Assembly (NCBI GenBank): GCA_964504155.1
Contig: CAZDCZ010000001.1
Location: 28,451-92,450, forward strand
Direction of reading: 5' to 3'
From: an uncultured Bacteroidales bacterium
Lineage (GTDB): Bacteria; Bacteroidota; Bacteroidia; Bacteroidales; UBA12077
Length of the DNA stretch: 64,000 nt
Shown: piece after piece, positions 1 through 51,757 of the stretch
How positions within the stretch are numbered: position 1 is the stretch's first letter
Layout: each line of letters begins with the position of its first letter
Made by a program: the position numbers and the translations under genes
The notes under the pieces: model-generated
Databases searched by the model: none
The model's input: only the letters and a program-made list of their open reading frames with translations
Told to the model about the DNA's origin: nothing

Positions 1-1408
1 CTACAAATTCTAATTTTGTTTTATCGATAATTACACTTTGTTTCTTAACTAATTTATTAGTTCTAAGCTTAGCTAGTTTTGTTTTTACAATTTCTTTTCC
101 GGTAGAATTCTTATAAACAGAACGAATAATACTCTCGCATAATCCTCCCGAAACAGACAACAACATAGATGCTGTGCTTCTATTATTAAAAGGTTCGTCG
201 GCCATTTCAGGTTCTATATTATCCATACTTAGTCCGTACAATTGTATTAGTTTGGCCAATTCTCGTGTAGTAATAACTAAATCAATATCAGAAACCCCTT
301 TATATGTCATTTCTTCGCGCGATGCTTCAAATTTTTTAGCCGTACATGGCATTATAGAAACAGAAAATATTTCTTCGGGATGTAAATTCTCTTTATCTGC
401 AACACTTCTCTTTATAAGAGCTCCAAGTATTTGCTGAGGCGATTTTACTTTCGATACATACGGAATTAAATCGGGATACGATTGTTCCATATATTTAATC
501 CATGCCGGACAGTTAGAACTAATTAATGGGGTTTCCCTTTTATTTTTTATTATATCATTTAATTCAAGTGCTTGTTCGTGAATTGCAATATCTGCTCCAA
601 ATGATGAATAAAATACTTTGTCGAACCCTATTTTTTTCAATATTGCATTTAAGTATTGAGAAATATCTTTACCCGATTTCAAACCTAATTCATCTGCTAA
701 AGAAACTGATACAGAAGGAGAATACTGTGCTACTACTTTAATTTTCGGGTTATTTAATACCTCATTTAATAAATCGAAATTTGTTCTTTCGTATAATGCT
801 CCGGTAGGACAAACCAATAAACATTGTCCACAAATAATGCAATTAGAAAAATTAATATCTTTGTCCATACTTGTGGCAATAGTTGTATTATTTCCTCTAT
901 TAATAATATCTAATGCAGAGACACCAATAATTTCGTTACAAACTCTCACACAGCGTTCACATAAAATACACTTAGCTGTATCTCTAATTATTCCAAGGCT
1001 AGAATAATCGAGTTTTGCATTTGCCTTTTTTCCTGTAATTTTTCTCTCCCTAATATTTAACTCATAGGCTAGTTTCTGTAGCTCGCAATTTTGATTTTTA
1101 ATACAATAGAAACAATCGTCGGGATGATTCGAAAGCAATAATTCAACAATCATTTTTCGGGCTTTAATAACACGAGAAGAATGAGTTTTGATTTTCATCC
1201 ACCCTTCAATAGGATATGAACACGAAGGTATTAATTCTTTTTTTCCTTCGATTTCGACAACACACATTCTACAAGCCCCTGTAGGAGTAAAGCCTTCCAT
1301 ATGACACAAAGTAGGTACTTTAATTCCATTTTTGGTTAAAGCTTCGAGAATAGTTTCTCCTTTTTTTGCTTTTATTACTTCGTTATTAACTTCTATATCG
1401 ATATCCAT
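1..1408 (-). CDS. [FeFe]-hydrogenase catalytic-subunit paralog 1 (HydA-like); C-terminus cut by the window edge
   Basis: Absent from the ORF track because there is no stop in the window. My translation from the ATG at 1408 gives MDIDIEVNNEVIKAKKGETILEAL. It has an N-terminal 2Fe-2S motif (CHMEG..CRMCVVE), HPDDCFYCIKNQNC, two ferredoxin CxxCxxCxxxC(P) motifs, and the H-domain motifs SSNCPAW (506-520) and MPCTAKKFE. The L3 motif lies outside the window. Confidence 0.85.
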   Translation of the reverse strand, partial: MDIDIEVNNEVIKAKKGETILEALTKNGIKVPTLCHMEGFTPTGACRMCVVEIEGKKELIPSCSYPIEGWMKIKTHSSRVIKARKMIVELLLSNHPDDCFYCIKNQNCELQKLAYELNIRERKITGKKANAKLDYSSLGIIRDTAKCILCERCVRVCNEIIGVSALDIINRGNNTTIATSMDKDINFSNCIICGQCLLVCPTGALYERTNFDLLNEVLNNPKIKVVAQYSPSVSVSLADELGLKSGKDISQYLNAILKKIGFDKVFYSSFGADIAIHEQALELNDIIKNKRETPLISSNCPAWIKYMEQSYPDLIPYVSKVKSPQQILGALIKRSVADKENLHPEEIFSVSIMPCTAKKFEASREEMTYKGVSDIDLVITTRELAKLIQLYGLSMDNIEPEMADEPFNNRSTASMLLSVSGGLCESIIRSVYKNSTGKEIVKTKLAKLRTNKLVKKQSVIIDKTKLEFV

Positions 1409-1427
1409 ATTATTTCTATATTGAATT

Positions 1428-3368
1428 TTACATACTCAAAATAGCATTAAACTTACAGCTTTTATAACATATTCCACACCCAATACAATTATCCTGAACA
1501 ATAAAATGGGGAGCTTTTTGTGTTCCGATAATAGCCCCTGTTGGGCATTTTTTAGCACAAATAGTACAACCAATACATGCTTCTACATCAATTATAAAAG
1601 TTCTAAGTTCTTGACAAACTCCAGCCTTACATTCTCTATCGAAGATATGTTCTTCATATTCTTCTCTAAACCATTTTAATGAACTTAGAACCGGATTAGC
1701 AGCTCTTTTTCCTAAACCACACAAAGATGTTTCTTTAATTACCTCAGCTAAATTTTCTAATTGCATTACTCCCTTAAACCTGTATAAAGTTGTATGATTA
1801 TCGTTATCGACAGGTTTTTTTGTAATATTTTCTAGAATCTCACTAATTCTTCTAGTTCCTTCTCTACAAGGTATACATTTTCCGCAACTCTGATTTTTTA
1901 AAAAATCTGCAAAATATTTTACTGTATCAATAACGCAAGTATCCTCATCAAGCACTATTATTCCGCCATCGAGATTTTCCCCAATATTTTCATTTTCAAA
2001 ATCAATTATCTCATCGAGATGTTGTTCTGCAACAACTCTTCCGGTAGGTCCTCCAATATGTAAACCCTTAAATTTTTTCCCATTAAGAACTCCTCCTCCC
2101 ACTCTGAAAATAATTTCGCGCAATTTTGTTCCAAATTCAACTTCAATAATGCCACAATTTTCAACTTTCCCGGCTAACGAAAATACTTTTGTTCCTTTAC
2201 TACTATCAATACCAATGGCTCTATACCATTTGGGGCCTTTTTCAAATATCTTAGGAAGATTAATTAATGTTTCCGAATTATTAACAACTGTTGGTGCTCC
2301 AAACAAACCTTTCGTAGCAGGATATGGAGGTTTATTAATAGGCATTCCTCTTTCTCCTTCGAGAAATTTAATAAGGGCAGTTTCTTCTCCGCATACATAA
2401 GCCCCGGCACCTTTTCTTATAACAATATCAAAACTATTTCCGCTCTGAAAAACATCGTGTCCTAACAAACCATACTCTTTTGCAGAATTAATAGCTATTG
2501 TTAAACGCTCTATTGCCAATTTATTTTCCGTATCGACATAGATATATGCTTTTTTTGCTCCTATTCCATATAATGCTATTGCTATACCTTCAATTAATTT
2601 ATGAGGATCGCTTTCCATTATAAACCGTTCTGAAAAAGCTCCGGGATCTCCTTCGCCGGCATTACAAATCAAGTATTTATTATTACTATCGGTATTTATT
2701 GCTATCTTCCATTTCTTCCCTGTTAAAAATCCCTCGCCCCCTCTTCCTTTCAATTTACTTTTTTCAATAATTTCAGCCACTTCATCGCGAGTATAATTAT
2801 TCATTACCTTAACAAATGACTTATATCCACCATTAGCAATATATTCATCAATAGACTCGGGATTAATTTTTCCACAATTATTTAAAATAACTCTTTGTTG
2901 ATTAGCAAAAAAAGCTATTTCATCGATAAATGTAATTCCTTCCCATGGTTCCAGTAAATCATTTCGAAATTGTCCAAATATATATTCTAAATTAATATGT
3001 TTACTGAAAACTCCTTCAAATACTGTTTGAAAATTTTCTAAATTAATATTCTGTAAAATCAAATTTGTTTTTCCCGGAAGTTGGATTCCTATCATAGGGT
3101 CTTTCGAACACAATCCAAGAGAACCCATTTTTATTAATTCATAATTTTTAGAATCCTTTTCTAAATATTCTTCAATAGCTAAAAATAATTCTTCGATTCC
3201 TCCAATTATACTACTACTTGTATATTCAACAGAAATAACAATATCATCAACCTTATCTCTTCTAAGAAATTGAAGTTTTTCTTTGTCTTCTTTTGTATAT
3301 TCTTCTATATCTCTTAAAAGTATTCTTGAGATTAAAAATTCCTTATAATTTTCAATATCATTATTCAT
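1428..3368 (-). CDS. hydB: NuoF-like flavoprotein subunit (HydB paralog 1) with a Cys-poor thioredoxin-like N-terminal domain and a C-terminal 2x[4Fe-4S] domain
   Basis: NuoF-type motifs are present but deviant: GRGGEGFLTGKKW and CNAGEGDPGAF. The N3 cluster motif SCGKCIPCREG..CGLG is intact. The C-terminus carries CIGCTICAKKCP and CIGCGICYKSC. It lies 20 nt upstream of HydA paralog 1. Confidence 0.88.
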   Translation of the reverse strand: MNNDIENYKEFLISRILLRDIEEYTKEDKEKLQFLRRDKVDDIVISVEYTSSSIIGGIEELFLAIEEYLEKDSKNYELIKMGSLGLCSKDPMIGIQLPGKTNLILQNINLENFQTVFEGVFSKHINLEYIFGQFRNDLLEPWEGITFIDEIAFFANQQRVILNNCGKINPESIDEYIANGGYKSFVKVMNNYTRDEVAEIIEKSKLKGRGGEGFLTGKKWKIAINTDSNNKYLICNAGEGDPGAFSERFIMESDPHKLIEGIAIALYGIGAKKAYIYVDTENKLAIERLTIAINSAKEYGLLGHDVFQSGNSFDIVIRKGAGAYVCGEETALIKFLEGERGMPINKPPYPATKGLFGAPTVVNNSETLINLPKIFEKGPKWYRAIGIDSSKGTKVFSLAGKVENCGIIEVEFGTKLREIIFRVGGGVLNGKKFKGLHIGGPTGRVVAEQHLDEIIDFENENIGENLDGGIIVLDEDTCVIDTVKYFADFLKNQSCGKCIPCREGTRRISEILENITKKPVDNDNHTTLYRFKGVMQLENLAEVIKETSLCGLGKRAANPVLSSLKWFREEYEEHIFDRECKAGVCQELRTFIIDVEACIGCTICAKKCPTGAIIGTQKAPHFIVQDNCIGCGICYKSCKFNAILSM

Positions 3369-3435
3369 TTACTGTAGTCTCTTAAATTAATACAATATCT
3401 TTTGTTTAAATATTTTATTTTTTCATTACAACTAA

Positions 3436-3891
3436 CTAATTATTTATATATGAATCTATAATTTCGTTAAAACTATCAAGAGTTAAATTAGTATAATACT
3501 TATCGTTAATCGACATAACAGGCCCCATACTGCAAGCTCCCATACATTCTGTAATTTCGAGACTAAATAGATTATTTTTTGCAGTCTCTTTATCTCTTAT
3601 CTTTAGTTTTTTATATAATTCAGTAATTAATAATTTACTTTTATTAATATGACAAGTAGTCCCCTCACAAATTTTTATATGATATTTTCCTTTCGGAACA
3701 AATCGAAAATAGCTATAGAATGTAGCTAATCCGTAAATTTTACTAGTTGCAATTCCAATATATTCTCCAATCTTTTTAATTGCATCCTCCGATAAATAAC
3801 CTTGTTGTTCTTGCACATCTTGTAATATAGGAACTAGATCATCTTTTTTAACAAATGGATACTTATTAAGTATTGAATTAATATCAAACAT
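3436..3891 (-). CDS. hydC: NuoE-like [2Fe-2S] subunit (HydC paralog 1)
   Basis: Similar to the other two NuoE-like ORFs (YLSEDAI..ATFYSYF..ICEGTTCH..CMGACSMGPV). The track ORF starts at 3933. I place the start at the internal Met (MFDINS, 3891) because a -7 promoter box sits at 3931-3938. Confidence 0.85.
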   Translation of the reverse strand: MFDINSILNKYPFVKKDDLVPILQDVQEQQGYLSEDAIKKIGEYIGIATSKIYGLATFYSYFRFVPKGKYHIKICEGTTCHINKSKLLITELYKKLKIRDKETAKNNLFSLEITECMGACSMGPVMSINDKYYTNLTLDSFNEIIDSYINN

Positions 3892-3930
3892 TGCTATGAA
3901 TTTTACATAATTTACACAAAACAAATAACA

Positions 3931-3985
3931 CAAATATAAAATATTTTTTGTTATTTTCTAAACATTGTTATTTTAATAACATTAC
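3931..3985 (-). promoter_or_regulatory. Promoter/operator site 1: TGTTA-N6-TAACA palindrome (3966-3981), AAAAATAACAAA block and -7 box TATATTTG (3931-3938)
   Basis: Read directly from the sequence. The same architecture recurs at 16172-16225 and 24561-24613. This copy lies in the divergent region between hydC paralog 1 and the hydS operon. Confidence 0.6.
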
Positions 3986-4121
3986 AAAAATCTAAATATC
4001 AATATAATTACTCACTAATAGCTATAAAAATTATTACAATAGAAATAATTTAATTAATTTTGATATTTATTTTCTAATAAATACAGATAGAGTTAATTAA
4101 ATATTGTTAAAATATTTCTGA

Positions 4122-4379
4122 ATGGGAAATGAATCTATAACAAAAACAGAAATAGTAATTTGCTTAGGAAGTTCTTGTTTTTCGCGAGGAAATAAAGAAA
4201 TTGTAAATATTATTAAAGCATATATTAAAGATAATCAATTAGAAGATAAAATTAATTTCCATGGTTGTCATTGTTTTAGTAAATGTAGCGAAGGACCGAT
4301 TCTAAAAGTCAACGAAAAAATACATACTGAAATATCAACTCAAAATATTCTTAATATATTAAATACAATTTCATTTTAA
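4122..4379 (+). CDS. Small thioredoxin-like [2Fe-2S] ferredoxin
   Basis: 85 aa with a CLGSSC..GCHCFSKCSEGP cysteine pattern (Cx4C...Cx3C) in a NuoE/HydC-like fold. It is the first gene of the plus-strand hydS operon. Confidence 0.65.
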   Translation: MGNESITKTEIVICLGSSCFSRGNKEIVNIIKAYIKDNQLEDKINFHGCHCFSKCSEGPILKVNEKIHTEISTQNILNILNTISF

Positions 4380-4462: not shown

Positions 4463-6325
4463 ATGTCGATAATAAAAATAAATACTGATAAATGCGATTT
4501 AAGTTACTCGTGTGTACGAGTTTGTTCGGTAAAAGCAATTGAAATTAAAACAAATACTAATTTCGCAAGAATAATCCCTGAACGATGCATTGGTTGTGGC
4601 GACTGCTTTTCTGTTTGTCCGAATAATGCAATAGAATATATAGATTCTAAAGAAATAACAAAAGAAATATTAAAATCGGCAAGTAAAACAGTTGCCATTG
4701 TTGACCCCAGTATTTCAGGAGAATTTTCTGATATTACTGATTATAGGAAATTTGTACAAATGATACGCGAATTAGGGTTTAACTATGTAAATGAAATTTC
4801 ATTTGGAGCCGATATTATTTCGAAAAAATACAAAGATTTATTAAAAGAATTTAAAGGCAAATATTATATAACATCAGCTTGCCCGGTTGTTGTATCATAT
4901 ATTCAAAAATACAAACCCGAACTTATAAACAATCTAATTCCTTTAGTATCGCCTACGCTTGCAACTGCAATTATAGTACAAAAACTTTATGGAAAAGATA
5001 TTAAAATAATTTCTATTGGTCCATGCATAGAGAATAAAAACGACGATAAATATATAAATAACAAAGATAAAAAAATTGATGCATCAATCACATTTACAGA
5101 ATTACGCGAACTCTTTAACGAATATAATATTTCTGAAAGCAAATTAGAATATTCCGATTTTGATGCTCCTATTGGATATAAAGGCTCTCTTCTGCCTATT
5201 TCTAATGGAATTCTTCAGGCTAGCGAAATTAACGAAAATCTATTAGATGGGAATATCATTACATCGGAAGGGAAAAACAATATTAAAGATGTAACAAATC
5301 AATTTTATAAAAAAATTACTTTCATAAAAAAACATTTCAATCTATTTTTTTGTAAGGGATGTATTATGGGGCCGGGAATGTCGGCAAATGGAGAGAAATT
5401 TACCAGAAGCTCTATGGTTACTAAATATGCCCGAAAAAGATTGAAAAATTTTAACGAAAGTAAATGGCAAGAAGAAATTGACAAATATATAAATCTTGAC
5501 TACTCAACAAGTTTTTTTAACGACGACCAAAGGATTGAATCTCCTCCTAATGAAAAAATTCAAGAAGTATTAAAAGTTATAGGAAAAACAAATTCTCAAC
5601 GAGGATGTAACGCCTGCGGTTACAACACATGTAAAGAATTTGCAATTGCTGTATCGAAAGGTCTTGCAAAAACCGAAATGTGCTTAACATATGCTTTACA
5701 AAATAAACATGAATATATAGATGCTTTAAGTTTGACAAATACAAAACTTGCAAATACAAAAAAAGCACTCATTAAATCGGAACAAGAAGCAAGAAAAGAA
5801 AAAGAAATTGCCATAGAAGCATCCGAAACAGTAAATACTCTATTACAAAAACTACCTTCGGGTTTTGTAATTATAGATAATAAGCTAAAAATTATTCAAT
5901 CGAATAAAAGCTTTGTTAAACTTCTTGGCGACGAAGCAGAAGCTATAAATGAAGTAATTCCCGGACTAGAAGGTGCCGATTTAAAAACTCTTCTTCCTTA
6001 TAATATTTATACTCTTTTTAATAATGTAATATCGGAAAATAGCAATCTAAAAAATAAAGATGTTTATGTAAACAATAAACTCCTAAATCTATCGATATTT
6101 ATTATTAATAAAAACAAAACTGCAGGAGCTGTATTCAGAGATATGTATTCGCCAGAAGTACGAAAAGAAGAAGTAATTAATCGTGTTACAGATGTAATAG
6201 ATAAAAATCTGAAAATGGTACAAAAAATTGGTTTTATTCTTGGTGAAGAAGCATCGGAAACCGAACAAATGTTAAACTCGATTATTGAGTTTTACAAATC
6301 GGGAAATAATAAAAAGAAAATATAA
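4463..6325 (+). CDS. hydS: Sensory [FeFe]-hydrogenase-like protein with a PAS domain (HydS, Group C-like)
   Basis: N-terminal ferredoxin motifs (CIGCGDCFSVCP). H-domain with modified motifs TSACPVV (4871-4885), GPCIENK and FFCKGCIMGPG. An extra 4-Cys segment (CNACGYNTCKEF..C), then a coiled region and a PAS-like C-terminus (LPSGFVIIDNKLKIIQSNKSF). Confidence 0.8.
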   Translation: MSIIKINTDKCDLSYSCVRVCSVKAIEIKTNTNFARIIPERCIGCGDCFSVCPNNAIEYIDSKEITKEILKSASKTVAIVDPSISGEFSDITDYRKFVQMIRELGFNYVNEISFGADIISKKYKDLLKEFKGKYYITSACPVVVSYIQKYKPELINNLIPLVSPTLATAIIVQKLYGKDIKIISIGPCIENKNDDKYINNKDKKIDASITFTELRELFNEYNISESKLEYSDFDAPIGYKGSLLPISNGILQASEINENLLDGNIITSEGKNNIKDVTNQFYKKITFIKKHFNLFFCKGCIMGPGMSANGEKFTRSSMVTKYARKRLKNFNESKWQEEIDKYINLDYSTSFFNDDQRIESPPNEKIQEVLKVIGKTNSQRGCNACGYNTCKEFAIAVSKGLAKTEMCLTYALQNKHEYIDALSLTNTKLANTKKALIKSEQEARKEKEIAIEASETVNTLLQKLPSGFVIIDNKLKIIQSNKSFVKLLGDEAEAINEVIPGLEGADLKTLLPYNIYTLFNNVISENSNLKNKDVYVNNKLLNLSIFIINKNKTAGAVFRDMYSPEVRKEEVINRVTDVIDKNLKMVQKIGFILGEEASETEQMLNSIIEFYKSGNNKKKI

Positions 6326-6360: not shown

Positions 6361-7542
6361 ATGACAAGTCCATTTTATATAGAAATCGACTACAAACAAA
6401 AAAATCATCACAACGAAAGAATCTGTGGAGATGTAGTTCTTATAAAAAAAGTAATCGACGAAAATAGGATTATTATTATTTTATCGGATGGGATGGGACA
6501 TGGCGTTAAAGCCAATGTTTTAGCAACACTTACTTCTTCAATGGCCCTAAATTTCACAAAAGAACATAAAGACAATAATAAAATTGCTGAAATAATAACA
6601 AAAACATTACCTGTTTGCAGCCAACGAAAAATTAGCTATTCAACATTTACAATTATCGATATTGAAAAAAACGGAAAAACACATATTCTTGAATATGATA
6701 ATCCTGAAACAATAATTATTAGAAATAATAAATTATTTGCTCCAGAATGGAAATCGATAATACTAAAAAAAGAAAATTGTAGTATTGAGTTGCGTAGTTG
6801 TAGTTTTTATTCCGAAAAGGAAGATAGAATAATCTTTGGCAGCGATGGTATTACTCAGTCCGGATTGGGAAGCGACAAGTATCCTTTTGGTTGGGGAATA
6901 GATAATTTCCGTAATTACATATTCGATTTATTAAAAAATAAACCCAATATATCTGCAAATAATCTTGCCAGCAAAATTATTAATATATCGTATAAAAATG
7001 ATAACTACGAGGCAAAAGACGATATCAGTTGTGTATCTCTGTATTTCCGTAAACCTAGAAAGTTATTAATATGTACAGGACCTCCATATTTAAAAGAAAA
7101 AGATATAGAATTAGCCGAAAACGTAAGAAACTTCGATGGCAAAAAAATAATTTCCGGAGCAACGACCAGCGATATTATTGCTCGTGAGTTTAACAAAGAT
7201 ATTGAAGACACATTCGAATTTACCGATAAAGATTTACCTCCTGTATCGTATATGGAAGGAATTGATTTAATAACAGAAGGAATTCTTACCTTAAGTAAGG
7301 TAGCAAACATATTACAAGACTATGATTATAATTATGTTCCGGGGAAAGGAGCTGCCGATCAGATAATACGTTTAATAAATGAAAGCGATGAGATTCATTT
7401 TATTATTGGCACTCGAATAAATATTGCTCACCAAGACCCAAATCTTCCTATTGAATTAGAAATCCGACGGACAGTTGTTCGAAAAATAGCTGAAATCTTA
7501 GAAAAAAAATTATTGAAAGAAGTAAAAATGAAATTTATATAA
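6361..7542 (+). CDS. PP2C/SpoIIE-type serine phosphatase with an uncharacterised ~160-aa C-terminal domain
   Basis: CGDVV..LSDGMGHGVKANVLA..FGSDGITQSG..DDISCV are the hallmark metal-binding segments of SpoIIE/RsbU-type PP2C phosphatases. It lies 35 nt downstream of hydS. Confidence 0.8.
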   Translation: MTSPFYIEIDYKQKNHHNERICGDVVLIKKVIDENRIIIILSDGMGHGVKANVLATLTSSMALNFTKEHKDNNKIAEIITKTLPVCSQRKISYSTFTIIDIEKNGKTHILEYDNPETIIIRNNKLFAPEWKSIILKKENCSIELRSCSFYSEKEDRIIFGSDGITQSGLGSDKYPFGWGIDNFRNYIFDLLKNKPNISANNLASKIINISYKNDNYEAKDDISCVSLYFRKPRKLLICTGPPYLKEKDIELAENVRNFDGKKIISGATTSDIIAREFNKDIEDTFEFTDKDLPPVSYMEGIDLITEGILTLSKVANILQDYDYNYVPGKGAADQIIRLINESDEIHFIIGTRINIAHQDPNLPIELEIRRTVVRKIAEILEKKLLKEVKMKFI

Positions 7543-7788: not shown

Positions 7789-8277
7789 TTATTTATCTTC
7801 ATATTCTTTAAGGATATCTTTTACTTTTTCGGGAGAAACTCTTCCATAAGTTTTATCACCAACCATTACAACAGGAGCTAAACCACATGCTCCAACACAA
7901 CGCAAACAGCTAAGCGAGAATTTACCGTCTTCGGCTGTTTGTCCTACTTCTAAATTAAGTTGACGCTTAAACTCCTGAAGTACATTTTCAGCACCACGCA
8001 CATAACAAGCTGTACCGGTACAAATAGAAATTGGGAATCTACCTTTTGGCAACATTGTAAAGAAAGAGTAAAATGTAACTACTCCATATACTTTAGCTAC
8101 CGATACATTTTGGTTTTTAGCAACAACCTCCTGTATTTCGGCAGGAAGATATCCAAAATGCTCTTGTGTTTTATGTAGAACATTAATTAAATTTCCCGGT
8201 TTATTATCAAAAGACTTACAAATTTCTTCGATCTTTTGTACGTCTTTTTCTTTTAATTTTACTTTTATTCTAGACAT
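7789..8277 (-). CDS. hydC: NuoE-like [2Fe-2S] subunit of a bifurcating-type [FeFe]-hydrogenase (HydC paralog 2)
   Basis: CTGTACYVRG...CLRCVGACGLAPV motif. It is the last gene of the hydD-B-A-C set. Confidence 0.9.
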   Translation of the reverse strand: MSRIKVKLKEKDVQKIEEICKSFDNKPGNLINVLHKTQEHFGYLPAEIQEVVAKNQNVSVAKVYGVVTFYSFFTMLPKGRFPISICTGTACYVRGAENVLQEFKRQLNLEVGQTAEDGKFSLSCLRCVGACGLAPVVMVGDKTYGRVSPEKVKDILKEYEDK

Positions 8278-8295
8278 ATATATTATCTCCTATAA

Positions 8296-10071
8296 TTAAC
8301 TAATTTCAATTTTACTACTCTTATCGAAATATGATGTATGAAGTAAGTGATGAGATTTCTCACTCATTGGCTCACCCAAGAATTCCTCATAAAGCTTAAT
8401 TATCTCAGTATTTTCATGAGATTTTCTAATTGGTTTATTAGCATCTTCTTCGTAAATTGCTTTTGCACGAGCTTTAAGTATGCTAGAATCGCCATGGTGC
8501 AATGGCTGTCCACCACCACCAATACAACCACCCGGACATGCCATTATTTCAATAGCATGGAATTTTGATTTTCCTCTTTGTATTTCTTCTAACAATTTAC
8601 GAGCATTTCCTAAACCATGAGCAATACCAATATTAAGAGGGAAGCCATTGAAATCTATTGTAGCTTTTCTTATACCTTCAAAACCTCTAAGCTCTTTGAA
8701 ATCTAATCGGCTTAATTTTTTACCGGTATGCAATTCGTAAGCTGTTCTTGTAGCAGCTTCAATAACACCACCTGTATTTCCGAATATTACGCCTGCTCCT
8801 GATGATTCTCCCATAACTTTATCGAAATTTTCTTCAGGAAGGTTCACAAAATCGATATTTGCTTCTTTAATTAAATGAGCTAATTCTCTGGTAGAAATAG
8901 AGTAATCGACATCAGGATTTCCATCAACTTTAAACTCATCGCGTTGAGCTTCGTATTTTTTTGCTAAACAAGGCATAATAGAAACCACTACCATATCTTT
9001 TCTTTTTACTTTAATCTTATCGGCAAAATATGTTTTAGCAATAGAACCAAACATTTGCTGAGGAGAACGTGCAGTAGAAGGGATGTCTTTCATATCGGGG
9101 AAATAATGCTCGAAGAAATTTACCCAAGCAGGACAACATGATGTTAAAATAGGTAATTTAACATTTTTATCGCCATTAAGGTGTTTTGTAAGTCTATCGA
9201 GTAATTCTGTACCTTCTTCCATAATAGTAAGGTCTGCAGCAAAATCAGTATCAAGCACATGATTAAATCCTAACTGACGAAGGGCGGCAACCATTTTACC
9301 TGTAACAAGTGTTCCGGGTTTCATGCCAAACTCTTCTCCTAATGCAGCTCTAACAGCAGGAGCTGTTTGTACAACTACAGTTTTTTCAGGATTAGAAAGA
9401 GCAGAAATGACATCTCTGGTATGATCTTTTTCTGTTAATGCACCGGTAGGACAAACTGCAACACACTGTCCACAATAAGTACAAGGAGAGTCTTCTAATT
9501 TCATTTCGAAAGCCGGGCCAACCGCTACATTAAAACCTCTATTGAAAGCATTTAAGGCTCCAACTGTTTGAAAATCGTTACATACAGTCTCGCATTTACG
9601 ACACATAATACATTTATCTAAATCGCGAATTATCGATGGAGACATATCTTCTTTATATGTCGACATTTCGGCATATTCTTGACCCGGAATTTCTCTGATT
9701 CCTAATTTTATTGCCATATCCTGCAAATCGCAATTACCCGATTTTGCACATGATAAGCAATCTTTAGGATGATCGGAAAGAATAAATTCCATTACTGTTC
9801 TTCGAGCATTAATAACTCTCATGGTATGAGTTCGAATAACCATACCTTCTGCAACATCAGTAGAACACGAAGGGGCTAGATTTTTCCTTCCTTCTACCTC
9901 TACTACACAAATTCTACATCCACCCGGTTTATTTTCTATTCCAAGATCTTCTAGATTCATGTAACAAAGAATAGGAATATCTATCCCTAGTTGCTTTGCT
10001 GCTTTATATATTGTAGTACCCTTAGGAACTTCAATTTCCTTATTATCAATTGTTATTTTTACATTTTCCAT
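8296..10071 (-). CDS. hydA: [FeFe]-hydrogenase catalytic subunit, canonical (HydA paralog 2)
   Basis: All three canonical H-cluster motifs are present: TSCCPAW, MPCLAKKYE and EIMACPGGCIGGGGQP. It also has the N-terminal 2Fe-2S motif, the His-ligated 4Fe-4S motif and 2x[4Fe-4S] accessory motifs. Confidence 0.95.
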   Translation of the reverse strand: MENVKITIDNKEIEVPKGTTIYKAAKQLGIDIPILCYMNLEDLGIENKPGGCRICVVEVEGRKNLAPSCSTDVAEGMVIRTHTMRVINARRTVMEFILSDHPKDCLSCAKSGNCDLQDMAIKLGIREIPGQEYAEMSTYKEDMSPSIIRDLDKCIMCRKCETVCNDFQTVGALNAFNRGFNVAVGPAFEMKLEDSPCTYCGQCVAVCPTGALTEKDHTRDVISALSNPEKTVVVQTAPAVRAALGEEFGMKPGTLVTGKMVAALRQLGFNHVLDTDFAADLTIMEEGTELLDRLTKHLNGDKNVKLPILTSCCPAWVNFFEHYFPDMKDIPSTARSPQQMFGSIAKTYFADKIKVKRKDMVVVSIMPCLAKKYEAQRDEFKVDGNPDVDYSISTRELAHLIKEANIDFVNLPEENFDKVMGESSGAGVIFGNTGGVIEAATRTAYELHTGKKLSRLDFKELRGFEGIRKATIDFNGFPLNIGIAHGLGNARKLLEEIQRGKSKFHAIEIMACPGGCIGGGGQPLHHGDSSILKARAKAIYEEDANKPIRKSHENTEIIKLYEEFLGEPMSEKSHHLLHTSYFDKSSKIEIS

Positions 10072-10083
10072 TTTCCAACAATT

Positions 10084-11877
10084 TTATTTTATGATAATTG
10101 CATCAAATTTACATTTCTCTATACAAGCTCCACATTTAATACAAGTATTTACATCGATAAAATGAGGTTCTTTTCTTTCTCCACTAATTGCACCAACCGG
10201 ACAAACACGAGCACAAGCAGTACAACCAACGCAATTCTCTGTAATAATCTCATATCTCATTAAATCTTTACAAACTCCGGCAGGACATTTTTTATCTACA
10301 ATATGAGCAACATACTCATCGTAGAAATTATCTAATGTCGATAAAATTGGGTTTGGAGATGTTTGACCTAAACCACAAAGAGAAGTCTCTTTAATAACAT
10401 TACACATATTCTTCAATCTATCAAGGTCTTCCATCACAGCTTTTCCTTGAGTAATTCTTTCAAGAAGTTCGTATAATCTCTTATTACCAATACGGCAAGG
10501 AGAACATTTTCCGCATGATTCTTCAACAGTAAATTCCAGATAGAATTTAGCTACAGAAACCATACAATCGTCTTCGTCCATAACAATCATTCCTCCGGAA
10601 CCCATCATAGAACCTACAGAAATAAGATTATCAAAATCGATAGGAGTATCGAGATGTTTTTCTGTTAAGCATCCGCCCGATGGTCCACCTGTTTGCACAG
10701 CTTTAAATTTCTTTCCATCTTTAATACCTCCGCCAATTTCGAAAATCACTTCACGAAGAGTGGTACCCATAGGCACTTCTATCAGTCCAACATTATTAAT
10801 CTTGCCGGCAAGAGCAAAAACTTTTGTTCCTTTAGATTTCTCTGTACCAATTTTATTAAACCAATTAGCTCCTTTATTAAGAATTACAGGGATATTAGCA
10901 AATGTTTCTACATTATTTACGTTAGTAGGTTTTCCTAAATAGCCAGATTCTGCCGGATATGGAGGTTTAATAGTAGGTTCTCCTCTTTCACCTTCCATTG
11001 AATGAATAAGAGCCGTTTCTTCACCACATACAAATGCACCGGCACCATATCTCATTTCTATATCGAAATTAAAATCAGTACCAAATATTTTTTCTCCTAA
11101 CATTCCATATTCTCTGGCTTGCTCAAGAGCTATTTTAAGTCGTTTAATAGCAAGCGGATATTCAGCTCTGATATATATAAGTCCTTTGTCGGCACCCATA
11201 GAATAACCACAGATTGCCATTGCTTCTAATACAGCGTGTGGATCACCTTCTAGAATAGATCTGTCCATAAATGCACCAGGATCACCTTCATCGGCATTAC
11301 ACACAACATATTTTTGGTCGGCTTCGTTTTTCGATGCAAATTCCCATTTTAATCCTGTAGGAAATCCCCCTCCTCCACGACCACGAAGACCAGATAATTT
11401 TATTTCGTTTATTACATCCATTGGAGTCATCTCAGCTAATGCATTACCAAGAGCTAAATAACCCTCACGAGCAATATATTCTTCAATATTTTCCGGGTCG
11501 ATAAAACCACAGTTACGCAAAGCAATTCTAATTTGCTTTTTGTAAAAACCCATTTCTTTTGAGTTTTCAACATGCTTTTTAGTATTTGTATCGACATAAA
11601 GCAAACGTTCTACTTTTCTACCTTTAATAATATGTTCTTCGATAATTTCTTTTGCATCTTCGGGTTTAACTTCAGTATAAAAAGTATTATCGGGCATTAC
11701 CTTTACAATTGGTCCTTTTTCGCAAAATCCAAAGCAACCTGTTACAACAACCTGCACTTCGTCTTGAAGTCCTTTTGTTTCAAGTTCTTTATTAAGATTT
11801 TCAACAATCAAATCGCTTGAAGAAGCTTTACATCCTGTTCCTCCACATACAAGCAAATGCATTTTATATTTTGCCAT
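10084..11877 (-). CDS. hydB: NuoF-like flavoprotein subunit, full-length bifurcating type (HydB paralog 2)
   Basis: N-terminal Trx-like 2Fe-2S motif (CGGTGC..CFGFC). GRGGGGFPTGLKW, CNADEGDPGAF and SCGKCSPCR..CGLG are present. The C-terminus carries CVGCTACARVCP and CIKCGACIEKC. Confidence 0.93.
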   Translation of the reverse strand: MAKYKMHLLVCGGTGCKASSSDLIVENLNKELETKGLQDEVQVVVTGCFGFCEKGPIVKVMPDNTFYTEVKPEDAKEIIEEHIIKGRKVERLLYVDTNTKKHVENSKEMGFYKKQIRIALRNCGFIDPENIEEYIAREGYLALGNALAEMTPMDVINEIKLSGLRGRGGGGFPTGLKWEFASKNEADQKYVVCNADEGDPGAFMDRSILEGDPHAVLEAMAICGYSMGADKGLIYIRAEYPLAIKRLKIALEQAREYGMLGEKIFGTDFNFDIEMRYGAGAFVCGEETALIHSMEGERGEPTIKPPYPAESGYLGKPTNVNNVETFANIPVILNKGANWFNKIGTEKSKGTKVFALAGKINNVGLIEVPMGTTLREVIFEIGGGIKDGKKFKAVQTGGPSGGCLTEKHLDTPIDFDNLISVGSMMGSGGMIVMDEDDCMVSVAKFYLEFTVEESCGKCSPCRIGNKRLYELLERITQGKAVMEDLDRLKNMCNVIKETSLCGLGQTSPNPILSTLDNFYDEYVAHIVDKKCPAGVCKDLMRYEIITENCVGCTACARVCPVGAISGERKEPHFIDVNTCIKCGACIEKCKFDAIIIK

Positions 11878-11897
11878 ATTCTTATTTGTTTTATAAT

Positions 11898-12293
11898 TTA
11901 CTTATCGATATTTTGATAATTCTCCGGAATAATTCCTTCAACAAGTTCTCCGTTTTTAATATATTTTTCGATTATCTCATCTGCTTTTTTCACATCAACA
12001 TAACCAAAAACTATTGGGTTTTCGCCGGGTTTATGTACTTCTATAGTTGGTTCTGCAAAACAATACCCCATATCTCCAACTTGAGTAACAACAGCGTCGA
12101 TATTTCTTTTTTCGAGAGCTTCTATTAAGAAATCCATTACTTCTTTTGCTCCTGAAGCAATACCACTTGTAGCCATACCAACCTTAATTTGCACATATGA
12201 ATCAGGATGATCGGCTCTTTCTCTGATATTAACTTTCGATTGCAAATCTTCTTTCATTTTTTTTAGATCTGCTAAAGTTTTAATTTTTGCCAT
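11898..12293 (-). CDS. Small Cys-poor thioredoxin-like protein (HydD-like accessory subunit)
   Basis: 131 aa. It resembles the Trx-like ferredoxin domain, but the cluster ligands are replaced (GMATSGIASG, GDMGYCFAEP). It sits directly upstream of hydB. Confidence 0.6.
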   Translation of the reverse strand: MAKIKTLADLKKMKEDLQSKVNIRERADHPDSYVQIKVGMATSGIASGAKEVMDFLIEALEKRNIDAVVTQVGDMGYCFAEPTIEVHKPGENPIVFGYVDVKKADEIIEKYIKNGELVEGIIPENYQNIDK

Positions 12294-12330
12294 ACCTATT
12301 TTTTTATTTAAAATTACTTTGTTTTTTATT

Positions 12331-12350
12331 AAATGTAAAGTCTTACATTT
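12331..12350 (-). promoter_or_regulatory. Perfect 8-bp inverted repeat AAATGTAA-N4-TTACATTT, between the regulatory and structural halves of the operon
   Basis: Read directly from the sequence. It lies in the only sizeable gap (70 nt) of the 10-gene minus-strand operon. Confidence 0.4.
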
Positions 12351-12363
12351 TAGTCTATTATCT

Positions 12364-12906
12364 TTATTTTTCTATTTCGCTAATATTTTCATTAATCATC
12401 TCTTTAAGATACTTTCTAATTGCGGGATTGCTAATTTCCATATCTCCAAGAACAGATTTTATTTCTTTTGTATTAAATGAATATTTAGATTCATTATAAA
12501 TATGATTATAAGTAAATTCAATTTCCGGATTTGCTGCCGACAATAAAACTATTGTTCCGGCAATATCTCCAATTGGCTGTCTATCGATATTATTAAGTTC
12601 AAATTCTGCTTTTACTTCTGTTCCAAAATTTATCTCCGATTCGATTTTCAAATATCCTTTTGTTCTTTCGGCATGTTGCTTTAATAGCGCTAATCCCATT
12701 CCCACTTTCCTAGTTGTTCTTGTTGTTGAATACGGATCGGAAACTTTTTCAAGAAACTCTTTATCCATACCCTTACCATTATCAATTATTAATAGTTTTA
12801 AGATATTTTTTTCGATATTTTTTTCAACACTAATTTGAATACTATCGGCATCGGCACTGATAGAATTTTGAACAATATCTAATATATGTGATGATATATC
12901 TTTCAT
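12364..12906 (-). CDS. GHKL-type ATPase domain protein (histidine-kinase-like ATPase with no HisKA domain)
   Basis: HILDIVQNS..IIDNGKGM..GMGLALLK resemble the N, G1 and G2 boxes. An ATGA overlap with the upstream PHP gene (12903-12906) suggests translational coupling. Confidence 0.65.
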   Translation of the reverse strand: MKDISSHILDIVQNSISADADSIQISVEKNIEKNILKLLIIDNGKGMDKEFLEKVSDPYSTTRTTRKVGMGLALLKQHAERTKGYLKIESEINFGTEVKAEFELNNIDRQPIGDIAGTIVLLSAANPEIEFTYNHIYNESKYSFNTKEIKSVLGDMEISNPAIRKYLKEMINENISEIEK

Positions 12907-13646
12907 TTATTTAAAATTACTTTTCTGTTGTTTTCGCATTTTAATGCCATTCTTATTTCTTGAAAAGATATTTCTTCTATCTCGAAAAGAGAATATACCT
13001 TAGCTATATCGTCGATATAATGGGCATCCGAGCTTTGAATAAATGTTTTTCCTTTTAAGTACATATTTCTCTCGATAAAATCGGAATATTTTACATTCTT
13101 CGAAATTTCAAGAGCATCAACTTCTAAATCGGGCGGTAAAAAGCCTAAGTTTGCCAATATAGAATTGTTTACTCTATCGATATGTGCCGGAATAAATAAT
13201 CCTTGAAGTTGATGAACTTTTTTCTCTACTTCGGAAATACCAACATCCAATGCCGATATTAAAAGGTTTTCTTCTTGCTCAAGAATATTATCATATTTAT
13301 CGACAAGGCACTGATACCCAAATCTATTTACATCATTTTTTATATCTGTTATATGAGCATCGATAAATTTTTGAAACTCAAATAACTGATTATCATTTTC
13401 AAAGAACGTTAAGCAATGGACTTCTTCTTTAGTTGTAATTTCGGCACCTTTAATAACAAACACACCAAATTCGTCTCCAACTTCTTTCAATACTGCACAT
13501 TGCTTTGTGCTATTATGATCGGTAATTCCGATTATGTCAATTTTTTTTTCTTTAGCCCTTTTAATAATATTAACAGGGCTCATTTCTAAATCGCCGCAAG
13601 GCGAAAGAACAGTATGCGTATGTAAATCTGCTCTAAATAATTTCAT
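12903..13646 (-). CDS. PHP-domain metal-dependent phosphoesterase
   Basis: ADLHTHTVLSPCGD..ITDHN..PAHIDR..SDAH are PHP-family His/Asp motifs. The track start is 13676; the internal Met at 13646 (MKLFRADLHTHT) fits the family's N-terminus better. Confidence 0.75.
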   Translation of the reverse strand: MKLFRADLHTHTVLSPCGDLEMSPVNIIKRAKEKKIDIIGITDHNSTKQCAVLKEVGDEFGVFVIKGAEITTKEEVHCLTFFENDNQLFEFQKFIDAHITDIKNDVNRFGYQCLVDKYDNILEQEENLLISALDVGISEVEKKVHQLQGLFIPAHIDRVNNSILANLGFLPPDLEVDALEISKNVKYSDFIERNMYLKGKTFIQSSDAHYIDDIAKVYSLFEIEEISFQEIRMALKCENNRKVILNK

Positions 13647-13980: not shown

Positions 13981-13995
13981 TTTCTTTGCTTTTAA

Positions 13996-15351: not shown

Positions 15352-15357
15352 AAAAAA

Positions 15358-15771: not shown

Positions 15772-15775
15772 TTTA

Positions 15776-19738: not shown

Positions 19739-19771
19739 ATAAAAACAAATAAAATTAACTAAATTGATAAT

Positions 19772-22865: not shown

Positions 22866-22898
22866 ATTATAATTTTTTAAATTTTATATACTTATTTA

Positions 22899-24062: not shown

Positions 24063-24085
24063 AATAATAATCTTTAATATGTTAA

Positions 24086-50367: not shown

Positions 50368-50431
50368 ATAGGGCTTATTAAATGAAAATTAAAATCAACG
50401 CCAAATGGTGTTGCAGATCTACCCCTAAATG

Positions 50432-51737: not shown

Positions 51738-51757
51738 TTCTAAATTTATAAATTTTA

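What the first reader, a model, noticed from the sequence alone, without database searches (positions are those of the whole stretch)
1..3891. Operon 1 is a divergent HydABC: Asn replaces the proton-relay Cys, flavin-site motifs are altered and the HydB N-domain is Cys-less
Seen directly in the sequence:
- HydA paralog 1 reads SSNCPAW where canonical enzymes, including paralog 2 here, read TSCCPAW.
- The TAPAVR and GxSSGAGxIFGxTGGV segments lining the H-cluster are YSPSVS and RSTASMLLSVSGGL.
- HydB paralog 1 reads GRGGEGFLTG and CNAGEGDPGAF, where the other two paralogs have GRGG(A/G)GFPTG and CNADEG(D/E)PG.
- Its N-terminal ~130 aa align to the Cys-poor HydD-like ORF (GSLGLCSKDPMIGIQLPG vs GDMGYCFAEPTIEVHKPG), not to a 2Fe-2S-binding domain.

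Established knowledge: the first Cys of TSCCP (C299 in Clostridium pasteurianum CpI) is the proton relay to the bridging amine. Its loss is a hallmark of slow or sensory [FeFe]-hydrogenases.

Inference: this is a trimeric complex with sensory-type or strongly biased chemistry. I am not aware of this combination having been characterised.
Basis: partly seen in the sequence, partly recalled or inferred. Interest (0 to 1): 0.65.

Follow-up and report, generated by a model that had tools for sequence, protein, structure and literature searches.

The report
Catalytically eroded HydABC in hydrogen-sensing cluster
Operon 1 encodes an intact, selectively maintained three-subunit hydrogenase-like complex that has lost the proton-relay and part of the NADH-site residues needed for fast hydrogen turnover; it belongs to a widespread Bacteroidota lineage always wired to hydrogen-sensor kinases, so it is more likely a slow, signalling-linked module than a bulk hydrogen producer.

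Summary
All four sequence observations are real. The missing C-terminus, recovered from an identical public protein, is intact, with both L3 cysteines. dN/dS is about 0.08, so this is not a pseudogene.

Asn299 is not an isolated oddity. Operon 1 belongs to a monophyletic Bacteroidota clade of hydCBA operons (my "type i"). In this clade the relay Glu279 is lost in 49/50 species, and Cys299 has been replaced repeatedly (D, N, S, A, V, F). Lys358 is sometimes lost, the invariant Asp of the HydB NADE loop is lost in 24/40, and the HydB N-terminal [2Fe-2S] ligands are often lost. Every other Fe-S ligand is kept.

The sister clade ("type ii", 28 species) is fully canonical. Both clades carry a sensory hydrogenase-histidine kinase, a response regulator and a hybrid kinase directly downstream. 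Only type i also carries the divergent PAS-type HydS/PP2C pair and Rex-RibF.

Engineered C298N and E279Q each abolish activity in prototype enzymes.

Best reading: a down-graded, slow HydABC paralogue kept as a redox/H2-signalling accessory. This is inferred, not shown. It is a new variant of a known kind.

The parts
1..1408 (-). hydA1: M3-type [FeFe]-hydrogenase-like subunit, codons 1-469 of 572. The C-terminus lies beyond the window start.
   Evidence: Continuous ORF, 100% identical to P0001. Pfam Fe_hyd_lg_C, Fer2_4, NADH-G_4Fe-4S_3 and Fer4. Best solved relative is T. kivui HydA1, 8a6t_A, E=4.9e-133. The AF2 model's best fold match is also 8a6t_A.
512..514 (-). Asn299 codon (AAC) at the position of the proton-relay Cys (CpI C299), inside SSNCPAW (window 500-520).
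551..583 (-). IHEQALELNDI helix. Glu279->Gln and Arg286->Ile; Glu278 and Glu282 are kept.
131..181 (-). RSTASMLLSVSGGLCES segment lining the [2Fe] subsite. Phe417->Leu, Gly418->Ser, Val423->Leu, Met424->Cys.
1428..3368 (-). hydB1: NuoF/HydB-like flavoprotein subunit. It has a Cys-depleted N-terminal thioredoxin-like domain and intact N3-type and C-terminal 2x[4Fe-4S] motifs.
   Evidence: Pfam Complex1_51K, NADH_4Fe-4S and Fer4. Best solved relative is A. woodii HydB, 7q4v_B, E=2.8e-165. Motifs.
2634..2747 (-). Remodelled flavin/NAD(H) site: GRGGEGFLTG (2718-2747; Glu212, Leu215) and CNAGEGDPGAF (2634-2666; Gly238 replaces the Asp of NADE).
3072..3125 (-). GSLGLCSKDPMIGIQLPG: remnant of the C-x3-C half of the N-terminal [2Fe-2S] motif. 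One Cys is left.
3436..3891 (-). hydC1: NuoE-like thioredoxin-like [2Fe-2S] subunit. CEGTTC...CMGAC, all four Cys present.
3892..4121 (.). AT-rich divergent intergenic region between hydC1 and the sensor operon. Presumed to hold both promoters; not tested.
   Evidence: No Rex-box-like site here.
4122..4379 (+). Small (85 aa) thioredoxin-like [2Fe-2S] protein preceding HydS. Conserved in type-i loci.
4463..6325 (+). Sensory-type [FeFe] hydrogenase (HydS, phosphatase-linked C3-like). L1 reads TSACP.
6361..7542 (+). PP2C/SpoIIE-family serine phosphatase partnered with HydS.

Best explanation
Operon 1 encodes a catalytically down-graded paralogue of the electron-bifurcating HydABC complex. I read it as an accessory of the flanking hydrogen/redox signalling genes, not as a bulk H2-evolving enzyme.

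Shown:
- The three subunits are intact and under strong purifying selection.
- Every Fe-S ligand is kept except those of the HydB N-terminal [2Fe-2S]. This includes the four Cys of the H-cluster cubane.
- In this window, Lys358, Pro231, Ser232, Pro324, Gln325 and Met353, which hold the di-iron subsite, are also kept.
- The group-A proton pathway is dismantled (C299N, E279Q, R286I, S320K, H565K, H569Y) and Met497 is Leu.
- The HydB NADE loop has lost its Asp.
- The whole clade shows this erosion. The clade is tied to a sensory hydrogenase-histidine kinase, a response regulator, a hybrid kinase, a PAS-type HydS/PP2C pair, Rex and RibF.

Inferred:
- HydA1 can still bind an H-cluster and react with H2, but only slowly or in near-single-turnover fashion.
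- The conserved Fe-S wire runs from the HydA N-terminal clusters to the HydB C-terminal ferredoxin-binding clusters. It exchanges electrons with ferredoxin and perhaps NAD(H).
- The redox state of the complex therefore reports or resets the H2/redox signal read by the adjacent sensor kinase and phosphatase systems. The canonical operon 2 next door does the bulk catalysis.
For: - **Complete gene, purifying selection.** P0001 is 572 aa with an intact L3. dN/dS is 0.080 for hydA and 0.089 for hydB against a 91%-identical relative, and 0.11-0.12 against an 83% one. These values are like those of the neighbouring genes.
- **Two sister clades.** An NJ tree of 87 loci gives a monophyletic type-i clade sister to a canonical type-ii clade.
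- **Type ii is canonical.** In 28 species it is 100% canonical at A230, E279, C299, M353, K358, F417 and M497 and at the HydB Asp.
- **Type i is eroded.** In 50 species E279 is kept in 1. Position 299 is C29/D8/N4/S3/A3/V2/F1. K358 is lost in 9, and the HydB Asp is lost in 24/40.
- **The erosion is site- and domain-specific.**
  - Of 117 deeply conserved HydA positions, 26 are degraded. They cluster on the 272-283 helix, on L1, at A230 and M353, and on the 408-431 loop/helix.
  - The type i/type ii ratio of within-clade identity is 0.96 for the HydA N-terminal Fe-S domain, 0.74 for the H-domain and 0.64 for the C-terminal tail.
  - It is 0.96 for the HydB C-terminal 2x[4Fe-4S] domain, 0.79 for the FMN core and 0.75 for the N-domain.
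- **HydA and HydB erode together.** Where the relay is neither Cys nor Asp, the HydB Asp is lost in 12/13 loci, against 12/27 otherwise.
- **Internal control.** In the same loci the pocket of the adjacent sensor kinase is invariant: K358 76/76, Asp299 69/76, Leu497 74/76. H-cluster maturation is therefore still needed in these genomes.
- **Even more degenerate HydA sit in the same cluster.** Examples are S299/A358, N299/R358 and F299/R358.
- **Tight hydA-sensor kinase spacing.** The gap ranges from 9 nt to a 4-nt overlap.
- **Engineered precedents.** C298N is inactive in CaHydA (PMC3485046). E279Q leaves below 1% activity in CpI (PMC6226526).
- **Sensor precedent.** TamHydS shares loss of C299, M497L, loss of E279 and retention of E282 (PMC11803613).
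- **Curated cut-offs.** HydA1 falls below the NCBIfam cut-offs that paralogues 2 and 3 pass.
Against: - No activity, cofactor or interaction data exist. Everything functional is inferred from sequence.
- 58% of type-i HydA keep Cys299 and 16% have Asp, which is functional in engineered enzymes. Many clade members might therefore still turn over using an unknown route past position 279.
- HydA1 has no signalling domain of its own and keeps Met353, unlike characterised sensors.
- The canonical type-ii operons carry the same downstream kinase genes. That linkage alone fits plain transcriptional regulation of an enzyme.
- A 1,370-residue, three-subunit complex is a costly sensor accessory.
- Whether type-i genomes always hold another catalytic hydrogenase was checked only for this window and two loci (L012, L018).
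Confidence: 0.45

Rival explanations
1. It is still a bona fide NADH- and ferredoxin-dependent (confurcating) hydrogenase isoenzyme. Protons reach the di-iron site by a different route, for example water or Ser230, or Asp299 in relatives. Rate, bias or pH optimum is altered. The flanking sensors simply regulate its expression.
For: - All electron-transfer cofactor ligands and the di-iron-binding Lys358 are kept in the window protein.
- Selection is strongly purifying.
- Most clade members keep Cys or Asp at 299. Asp is a competent relay in CaHydA (PMC3485046).
- Group D enzymes use an alternative proton path (PMC10407848).
- Canonical type-ii operons have the same downstream kinase genes.
- The Gly238/Glu212 pair in HydB could be a relocated carboxylate: it occurs in 11/11 loci of one subclade.
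Against: - Asn cannot be (de)protonated, and C298N is inactive (PMC3485046).
- Gln279 blocks the path in CpI (PMC6226526).
- Position 299 also takes Ala, Val and Phe, and Lys358 is lost in 9/50 species and in further degenerate relatives. The operon stays intact all the same. That is hard to reconcile with selection for catalysis.
- No Glu sits at the group-D relay position 423 in the window protein.
- The N-terminal [2Fe-2S] (B5), described as conserved in all Bfu enzymes (PMC9304861), is missing.
Confidence: 0.3
2. It is a pseudo-hydrogenase. HydA1 binds only the [4Fe-4S] cubane and no di-iron subsite, and the complex is purely an Fe-S electron wire. It would link ferredoxin, and possibly NAD(H), to the neighbouring sensory hydrogenases or another partner. 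This is analogous to the HydA-like subunits of other Bfu enzymes that lack an H-cluster.
For: - The best-conserved parts in type i are the HydA N-terminal Fe-S domain and the HydB ferredoxin-binding domain.
- Close cluster relatives have lost Lys358, which holds the di-iron site.
- There is precedent for HydA homologues without an H-cluster in NiFe-HydABCSL (PMC9304861).
- From memory, the Stn transhydrogenase subunit is a second such precedent.
Against: The window protein itself keeps Lys358, Pro231, Ser232, Pro324, Gln325, Met353 and Glu361. Its pocket therefore looks competent to hold the subsite. The H-domain is still under purifying selection.
Confidence: 0.2
3. It is a decaying, functionless duplicate on its way to becoming a pseudogene.
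For: Many normally invariant catalytic residues are lost in both HydA1 and HydB1. A canonical HydABC operon sits next door.
Against: - There are no stops or frameshifts.
- dN/dS is 0.08-0.12.
- The clade persists with the same gene order in at least 50 species at 50-65% identity.
- All Fe-S ligands are invariant.
Confidence: 0.03

Closest known systems
Electron-bifurcating [FeFe]-hydrogenase HydABC (group A3 / 'A6'; Bfu family): T. kivui 8a6t, A. woodii 7q4v/8a5e, T. maritima 7p5h
   Same: - Same three subunits, gene order and domain architecture.
- These are the best solved relatives of HydA1 (E=4.9e-133) and HydB1 (E=2.8e-165).
- The AF2 model gives the same fold.
- All Fe-S ligands of HydA, HydC and the HydB core and C-terminus are present.
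   Different: - The proton pathway is dismantled (N299, Q279, I286, K320, K565, Y569) and Met497 is Leu.
- The Asp of the HydB NADE loop is Gly.
- The HydB N-terminal [2Fe-2S] ligands are lost.
- HydA1 falls below the NCBIfam cut-offs.
- The operon is always fused to signalling genes.
Putative sensory [FeFe] hydrogenases: TamHydS (group D) and TmHydS (group C)
   Same: - Loss of the relay Cys and of Glu279 and Arg286, with Glu282 retained.
- Met497->Leu, as in TamHydS (PMC11803613).
- Genomic association with kinases and phosphatases.
   Different: - HydA1 has the M3 architecture with an N-terminal [2Fe-2S]/[4Fe-4S] wire and an SSU-like tail, and it partners with NuoF/NuoE-like subunits.
- It has no PAS or kinase domain and no C-terminal extra cluster.
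- It keeps Met353 and has Asn rather than Ala at 299.
- It has no Glu at the group-D relay position 423.
Engineered loss-of-function variants CaHydA C298N and CpI E279Q
   Same: The same two substitutions occur naturally and together in HydA1.
   Different: Those are single changes in a high-activity scaffold. Here they sit in a scaffold with about 26 further altered second-sphere positions and under natural selection.
HydA-like subunits without an H-cluster in other Bfu enzymes (e.g. HydA of NiFe-HydABCSL, 7t2r)
   Same: The HydABC-type scaffold is retained as an Fe-S wire while hydrogenase chemistry at HydA is dispensable (PMC9304861). More degenerate type-i relatives lacking Lys358 resemble this.
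   Different: Those enzymes have another catalytic module for the third substrate. No such module is encoded in operon 1. The window HydA1 keeps the full H-domain and Lys358.
Non-bifurcating NADH-dependent HydABC of the Syntrophomonas wolfei type
   Same: A HydB lacking some of the extra clusters said to define bifurcating enzymes (PMC9304861).
   Different: S. wolfei-type HydB lacks both N- and C-terminal cluster domains, like HydB3 of this window (387 aa). HydB1 keeps the C-terminal 2x[4Fe-4S] and the N-domain fold, and loses only the N-domain ligands.

Membership tests
[FeFe] hydrogenase, group A catalytic subunit (A3/'A6', M3 type) | H-domain (PF02906) plus N-terminal [2Fe-2S], His-ligated [4Fe-4S] and 2x[4Fe-4S] domains | tested here: met
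   Pfam hits. All ligand Cys/His are invariant in the family alignment. Fold match to 8a6t_A.
[FeFe] hydrogenase, group A catalytic subunit (A3/'A6', M3 type) | Four Cys ligating and bridging the H-cluster cubane (C300, C355, C499, C503) | tested here: met
   Present in P0001. C300 and C355 are kept in 120/120 close homologues. C499 (119/120) and C503 (118/120) are missing only where the alignment has gaps.
[FeFe] hydrogenase, group A catalytic subunit (A3/'A6', M3 type) | L1 motif TSCCP with the proton-relay Cys (C299) | tested here: not met
   SSNCPAW; codon AAC at 512-514
[FeFe] hydrogenase, group A catalytic subunit (A3/'A6', M3 type) | L2 MPCxxK (Met353, Cys355, Lys358) | tested here: met
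   MPCTAKK, aa 353-359
[FeFe] hydrogenase, group A catalytic subunit (A3/'A6', M3 type) | L3 ExMxCxxGC with Met497 | tested here: not met
   EILTCPDGC: both Cys are kept, Met497->Leu
[FeFe] hydrogenase, group A catalytic subunit (A3/'A6', M3 type) | Proton-transfer pathway E279-S319-E282-R286 and entrance S320/H565/H569 | tested here: not met
   Q279, I286, K320, K565 and Y569; S319, E282 and E278 are kept
[FeFe] hydrogenase, group A catalytic subunit (A3/'A6', M3 type) | Curated NCBIfam score cut-offs (NF040763, TIGR02512) | tested here: not met
   639.9 against a cut-off of 765, and 404.1 against 405.95. Paralogues 2 and 3 pass both.
[FeFe] hydrogenase, group A catalytic subunit (A3/'A6', M3 type) | H2 evolution/oxidation activity and H-cluster FTIR signature | not testable with these tools
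   Needs expression, maturation and spectroscopy.
Bfu / HydABC electron-bifurcating BC core (Schut et al. 2022, PMC9304861) | NuoF-like FMN/NAD(H) domain with a canonical Gly-rich loop and NADE loop | tested here: not met
   The domain is present, but it reads GRGGEGFLTG and CNAGEGDPGAF. The Asp is kept in 23/23 type-ii HydB and in the three solved chains aligned.
Bfu / HydABC electron-bifurcating BC core (Schut et al. 2022, PMC9304861) | N3-type [4Fe-4S] and C-terminal 2x[4Fe-4S] in HydB; [2Fe-2S] in HydC | tested here: met
   SCGKCIPCREG, CIGCTICAKKCP and CIGCGICYKSC. HydC has CEGTTC...CMGAC.
Bfu / HydABC electron-bifurcating BC core (Schut et al. 2022, PMC9304861) | His/Cys site after the N3 motif (B2 cluster or Zn site) | tested here: inconclusive
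   EEHIFDRECKAGVC keeps the His and two Cys. The remaining ligands were not mapped.
Bfu / HydABC electron-bifurcating BC core (Schut et al. 2022, PMC9304861) | N-terminal thioredoxin-like [2Fe-2S] (B5), stated to be conserved in all Bfu enzymes | tested here: not met
   Only Cys87 remains in the first 140 residues. HydB2 has CGGTGC...GCFGFC.
Sensory [FeFe] hydrogenases (groups C and D) | Relay Cys and group-A proton path absent; Met497 replaced | tested here: met
   compared with PMC11803613
Sensory [FeFe] hydrogenases (groups C and D) | Met353 replaced (Gly/Ser), M2-type N-terminus, C-terminal extra cluster plus PAS/kinase/MCP domain | tested here: not met
   Met353 is kept. The architecture is M3 with an SSU-like tail and no signalling domain.
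Sensory [FeFe] hydrogenases (groups C and D) | Genomic linkage to kinases/phosphatases | tested here: met
   The sensor kinase, RR and hybrid kinase lie directly downstream. HydS/PP2C lie divergently upstream.

The most novel reading that the evidence does not exclude
Type-i HydABC is a 'pseudo-hydrogenase' that physically docks the Asp299-type sensory hydrogenase-histidine kinase encoded directly after hydA. Together they would form a redox comparator. H2 is sensed at the kinase's invariant H-cluster. The eroded HydABC scaffold poises or drains that sensor against the ferredoxin and NAD(H) pools. Kinase output would then report H2 pressure relative to cellular redox state rather than H2 alone.
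Probability: 0.15. Interest if true: 0.85.

Novelty: new variant of a known kind. Interest (0 to 1): 0.58.

Why it matters
1. **A natural experiment on catalysis versus sensing.** One scaffold carries Cys, Asp, Asn, Ser, Ala, Val or Phe at the relay position. Glu279 is gone clade-wide. A fully canonical sister clade serves as the control.
2. **A test of the Bfu model.** The model holds that all HydB clusters, including the N-terminal [2Fe-2S], and the NADE loop are invariant. Here they are not, so their role in bifurcation can be tested.
3. **An annotation problem.** HydDB-type rules call any group-A HydA with a NuoF neighbour 'A3, bifurcating' (PMC5037454). NCBI names members of this clade inconsistently: group A hydrogenase, ferredoxin, or (2Fe-2S)-binding protein. 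Surveys may therefore overcount H2-producing capacity in anoxic Bacteroidota.
4. **A new component for H2 sensing.** If the signalling link is real, it adds an unexpected component to the still uncharacterised [FeFe] H2-sensing pathways.

Tried and rejected
- **Rex operator.** I scanned for the Firmicute-type consensus TTGTGAAN4TTCACAA with up to 3 mismatches. It gave 3 hits in the window against 8.8 expected, and none lies near operon 1. This is uninformative.
- **Link to the low activity of the Bacteroides thetaiotaomicron A3 subunit (PMC12578642).** The closely related B. caccae A3 gene is 1767 nt, about 588 aa. That is paralogue-2-like in length. No sequence was available, so I make no link.
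- **Naming the organism.**
  - The genome-contig scan found no hit above 62% identity.
  - The cluster look-up gave no names.
  - Bacteroidota is inferred from the relatives and from a peptidase S46 gene.
- **Group-D-style alternative relay.** TamHydS E252 corresponds to CpI V423. The window protein has Leu there. Glu423 occurs only in L033, L035 and L074.
- **Glu212/Gly238 in HydB as a compensatory pair.** They co-occur perfectly (11/11), but within one subclade, so this counts as one event. It is not evidence of covariation.
- **AF2 model of HydA1.**
  - The H-domain is well predicted, but the Fe-S region 126-209 is poor (mean pLDDT 68.8).
  - It is usable only for fold assignment.
- **General literature search for natural C299 variation in trimeric enzymes.** It returned nothing relevant. 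The Hydrogenedentota paper reports only the Cys300/Ser variation and the adjacency of C1/C3 genes to A3 genes.

Full report
**1. What is in the window**

Three co-directional genes lie on the minus strand:
- hydC1, 3436..3891 (151 aa, NuoE-like).
- hydB1, 1428..3368 (646 aa, NuoF-like).
- hydA1, 1408..1 (469 codons; the C-terminus is cut by the window edge).

Pfam gives the expected HydABC domain sets.
- SSNCPAW is present; the Asn299 codon AAC is at 512-514.
- YSPSVS and RSTASMLLSVSGGL are present.
- HydB1 reads GRGGEGFLTG and CNAGEGDPGAF, against canonical motifs in HydB2 and HydB3.
- The HydB1 N-terminus has a single Cys and aligns to the 131-aa HydD-like ORF with E=5e-9.

**2. The missing end, and whether this is a pseudogene**

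An identical public protein (P0001, 572 aa) supplies the C-terminus, FLEILTCPDGCINGGGQP. Both L3 cysteines are present and Met497 is Leu.

I compared the window-identical contig L001 with a 91%-identical relative (L006). dN/dS is 0.080 for hydA and 0.089 for hydB. Against an 83% relative it is 0.11-0.12. Neighbouring genes give similar values. The genes are therefore functional and under purifying selection.

**3. Relatives and residue mapping**

The best solved relatives are the bifurcating HydA1 of T. kivui (8a6t_A, E=4.9e-133) and HydB of A. woodii (7q4v_B, E=2.8e-165). An AF2 model gives the same fold. Its H-domain is confident and its Fe-S region is poor.

HydA1 mapped onto CpI numbering:

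| Group | Residues |
|---|---|
| Kept | C300, C355, C499, C503, P231, S232, S319, P324, Q325, M353, K358, E361, E278, E282 |
| Changed | A230S, E279Q, R286I, C299N, S320K, F417L, G418S, V423L, M424C, M497L, H565K, H569Y |

Published mutagenesis bears directly on two of these changes:
- Of all 19 replacements of the relay Cys in CaHydA, only Asp keeps activity, and C298N is negative (PMC3485046).
- E279Q leaves below 1% activity in CpI because Gln fills and blocks the path (PMC6226526).
- S320, H565 and H569 form the pathway entrance (bioRxiv 10.64898/2026.09.22.753672).

The putative sensor TamHydS shares loss of C299, M497L, loss of E279 and R286, and retention of E282 (PMC11803613).

HydA1 also misses the curated NCBIfam cut-offs: 639.9 against 765, and 404.1 against 405.95. 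Paralogues 2 and 3 pass both.

**4.

On the identical contig, hydA1 is followed after 9 nt by these genes:
- A 664-aa protein with a sensory-type H-domain fused to HisKA/HATPase.
- A response regulator.
- A hybrid response-regulator/kinase.
- Rex.
- RibF.

Divergently upstream, inside the window, lie three more genes:
- A small [2Fe-2S] protein.
- A HydS-type protein (TSACP).
- A PP2C phosphatase.

**5. This is a clade, not an oddity**

A scan of one genome per species returned 80 loci. Nearly all are Bacteroidota MAGs, with a few Planctomycetota. Almost all share hydC-hydB-hydA-sensor kinase-RR-hybrid kinase. They split into two sister clades on an NJ tree.

| Feature | Type ii (28 species) | Type i (50 non-redundant species, includes the window) |
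|---|---|---|
| Extra genes | Upstream receiver-like gene; no HydS/PP2C, Rex or RibF | HydS/PP2C side in 37, Rex in 36, RibF in 32 (where the flanks reach) |
| HydA A230, M353, F417, M497 | 100% canonical | Variable |
| HydA E279 | 28/28 | Kept in 1/50 (Q21, V7, L7, I6, T4...) |
| HydA position 299 | C 28/28 | C29, D8, N4, S3, A3, V2, F1 |
| HydA K358 | 28/28 | Lost in 9/50 |
| HydB Asp of NADE | 23/23 | Lost in 24/40 (G10, N4, K4, A3, E3) |
| HydB N-domain Cys | 3 or 4 in all | Fewer than three in 24/40 |

Non-Cys residues at 299 arose many times on the tree, and Asn arose at least three times. Among the 120 closest database homologues, position 299 is C78, S18, D14, N6, F2, Y1, T1.

Three still more degenerate representatives sit in the same gene cluster: S299/A358, N299/R358 and F299/R358.

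**6. The erosion is specific**

- Of 117 HydA positions identical in CpI, paralogue 2 and type ii, 26 are degraded in type i. They cluster on the 272-283 helix, on L1, at A230 and M353, and on the 408-431 loop/helix. That is the proton path and the di-iron pocket.
- For HydA, the type i/type ii ratio of within-clade identity is 0.96 for the N-terminal Fe-S domain, 0.74 for the H-domain and 0.64 for the C-terminal tail.
- For HydB, the ratio is 0.96 for the C-terminal ferredoxin-type domain, 0.79 for the FMN core and 0.75 for the N-domain.
- Erosion of the two subunits goes together. Where the relay is neither Cys nor Asp, the HydB Asp is lost in 12/13 loci, against 12/27 otherwise.
- As an internal control, the H-cluster pocket of the adjacent sensor kinase is invariant across 76 loci: K358 76/76, Asp at 299 in 69/76, Leu497 74/76. 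H-cluster maturation is still required in these genomes. The relaxation is peculiar to HydA.

**7. HydB details**

The NADE(S/G)(E/D)PG loop holds the redox-switching peptide next to the nicotinamide and the NuoE cluster in NuoEF (PMC6560083). Gly238 replaces its Asp.

The Glu212/Gly238 pair is shared by an 11-locus subclade whose HydA mostly still has Cys299. It therefore predates the Asn299 change and counts as one evolutionary event.

The N-domain is homologous to the [2Fe-2S] domain of solved HydB/NfnB. That cluster, B5, is described as conserved in all Bfu enzymes (PMC9304861). Here its ligands are gone.

**8. Interpretation**

Shown: operon 1 is an intact, selected HydABC-type complex. 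Its Fe-S wire is preserved. Its proton path, part of its di-iron second sphere, its NAD(H) loop and its N-terminal HydB cluster are eroded. It belongs to a clade hard-wired to H2/redox signalling genes.

Inferred (confidence about 0.45): the window protein can still bind an H-cluster but turns over slowly at best. The complex serves the adjacent sensors as a redox or H2-responsive accessory. The canonical operon 2 next door does the bulk catalysis.

Rivals:
- A real isoenzyme with an alternative proton route (0.3).
- A pure Fe-S wire without the di-iron site (0.2).
- Decay to a pseudogene (0.03, contradicted by selection and synteny).

I found no paper describing this clade. Adjacency of C1/C3 sensors to A3 genes is known (PMC11406978, PMC5037454).

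**9. Verdict**

This is a new variant of a known kind and is moderately interesting. It offers a natural series of relay-site variants with a canonical sister clade as control. It also warns that annotation by neighbourhood rules labels such genes as bifurcating hydrogenases.

Noticed in passing
L001 4706-6700 (just beyond window position 1, minus strand continuation): A sensory hydrogenase-histidine kinase fusion lies directly after hydA1. It carries a natural Asp at the relay-Cys position (SSDCP), Leu497 and Gly353. This pocket is almost invariant across 76 loci: K358 76/76, Asp299 69/76. It is a natural 'C299D' sensor.
   Followed up: partly
L001 vs L006, whole hydC-hydB-hydA-sensor kinase stretch: Divergence between two close strains is mosaic. 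dS is 0.03 for hydC and 0.14 for the sensor kinase, but 0.49 for hydB and 0.74 for hydA. This suggests recombination inside the operon.
   Followed up: no
window 21075-24553 (-): A third hydrogenase operon. HydA3 has TSCSPGW, with Ser at the Cys300 ligand position as in A. woodii. HydB3 is short (387 aa) and lacks both N- and C-terminal cluster domains, which is the non-bifurcating S. wolfei-like type. HydC3 completes the operon.
   Followed up: partly
window 7789-16120 (-): The canonical operon 2 has its NuoE-like gene downstream of hydA2 (7789-8277). Upstream it has its own regulator set: a HydD-like ORF (11898-12293), an HATPase protein (12364-12906), a PHP-domain protein (12903-13676), a third HydS-like protein without an output domain (13996-15351) and an anti-sigma-type kinase-like HATPase (15358-15819).
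   Followed up: partly
window 131-181 (HydA1 aa 410-426): Cys424 (GGLCES), next to the residue facing the azadithiolate, occurs only in the window subclade (P0001-P0003) that has lost Cys299. It is unexplained. It could be a relocated thiol or a coincidence.
   Followed up: no
L003 13929-16770; L088 14002-17810: RibF (FMN/FAD synthetase) closes the type-i cluster in 32/50 species and never appears in type ii. In two loci a HydG-like radical-SAM gene and TM1266-like genes follow it. Why a flavin-cofactor gene travels with a HydB that has a remodelled flavin site is unexplained.
   Followed up: no
window 16649-20956 (+): A large multi-PAS hybrid histidine kinase/receiver (1029 aa) and a receiver-HATPase protein (394 aa) sit between hydrogenase operons 2 and 3.
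   Followed up: no
window 49486-52000: A tyrosine recombinase (49486-50367) lies next to the lowest-GC stretch of the window (GC 0.226 at 50-52 kb). This may be the edge of a mobile element.
   Followed up: no
L007 (whole contig): The contig carrying the Phe299/Met358 relative has many split genes: the sensor kinase, RibF and ABC transporter genes. This is probably assembly error rather than decay, so its substitutions should be treated with caution.
   Followed up: no
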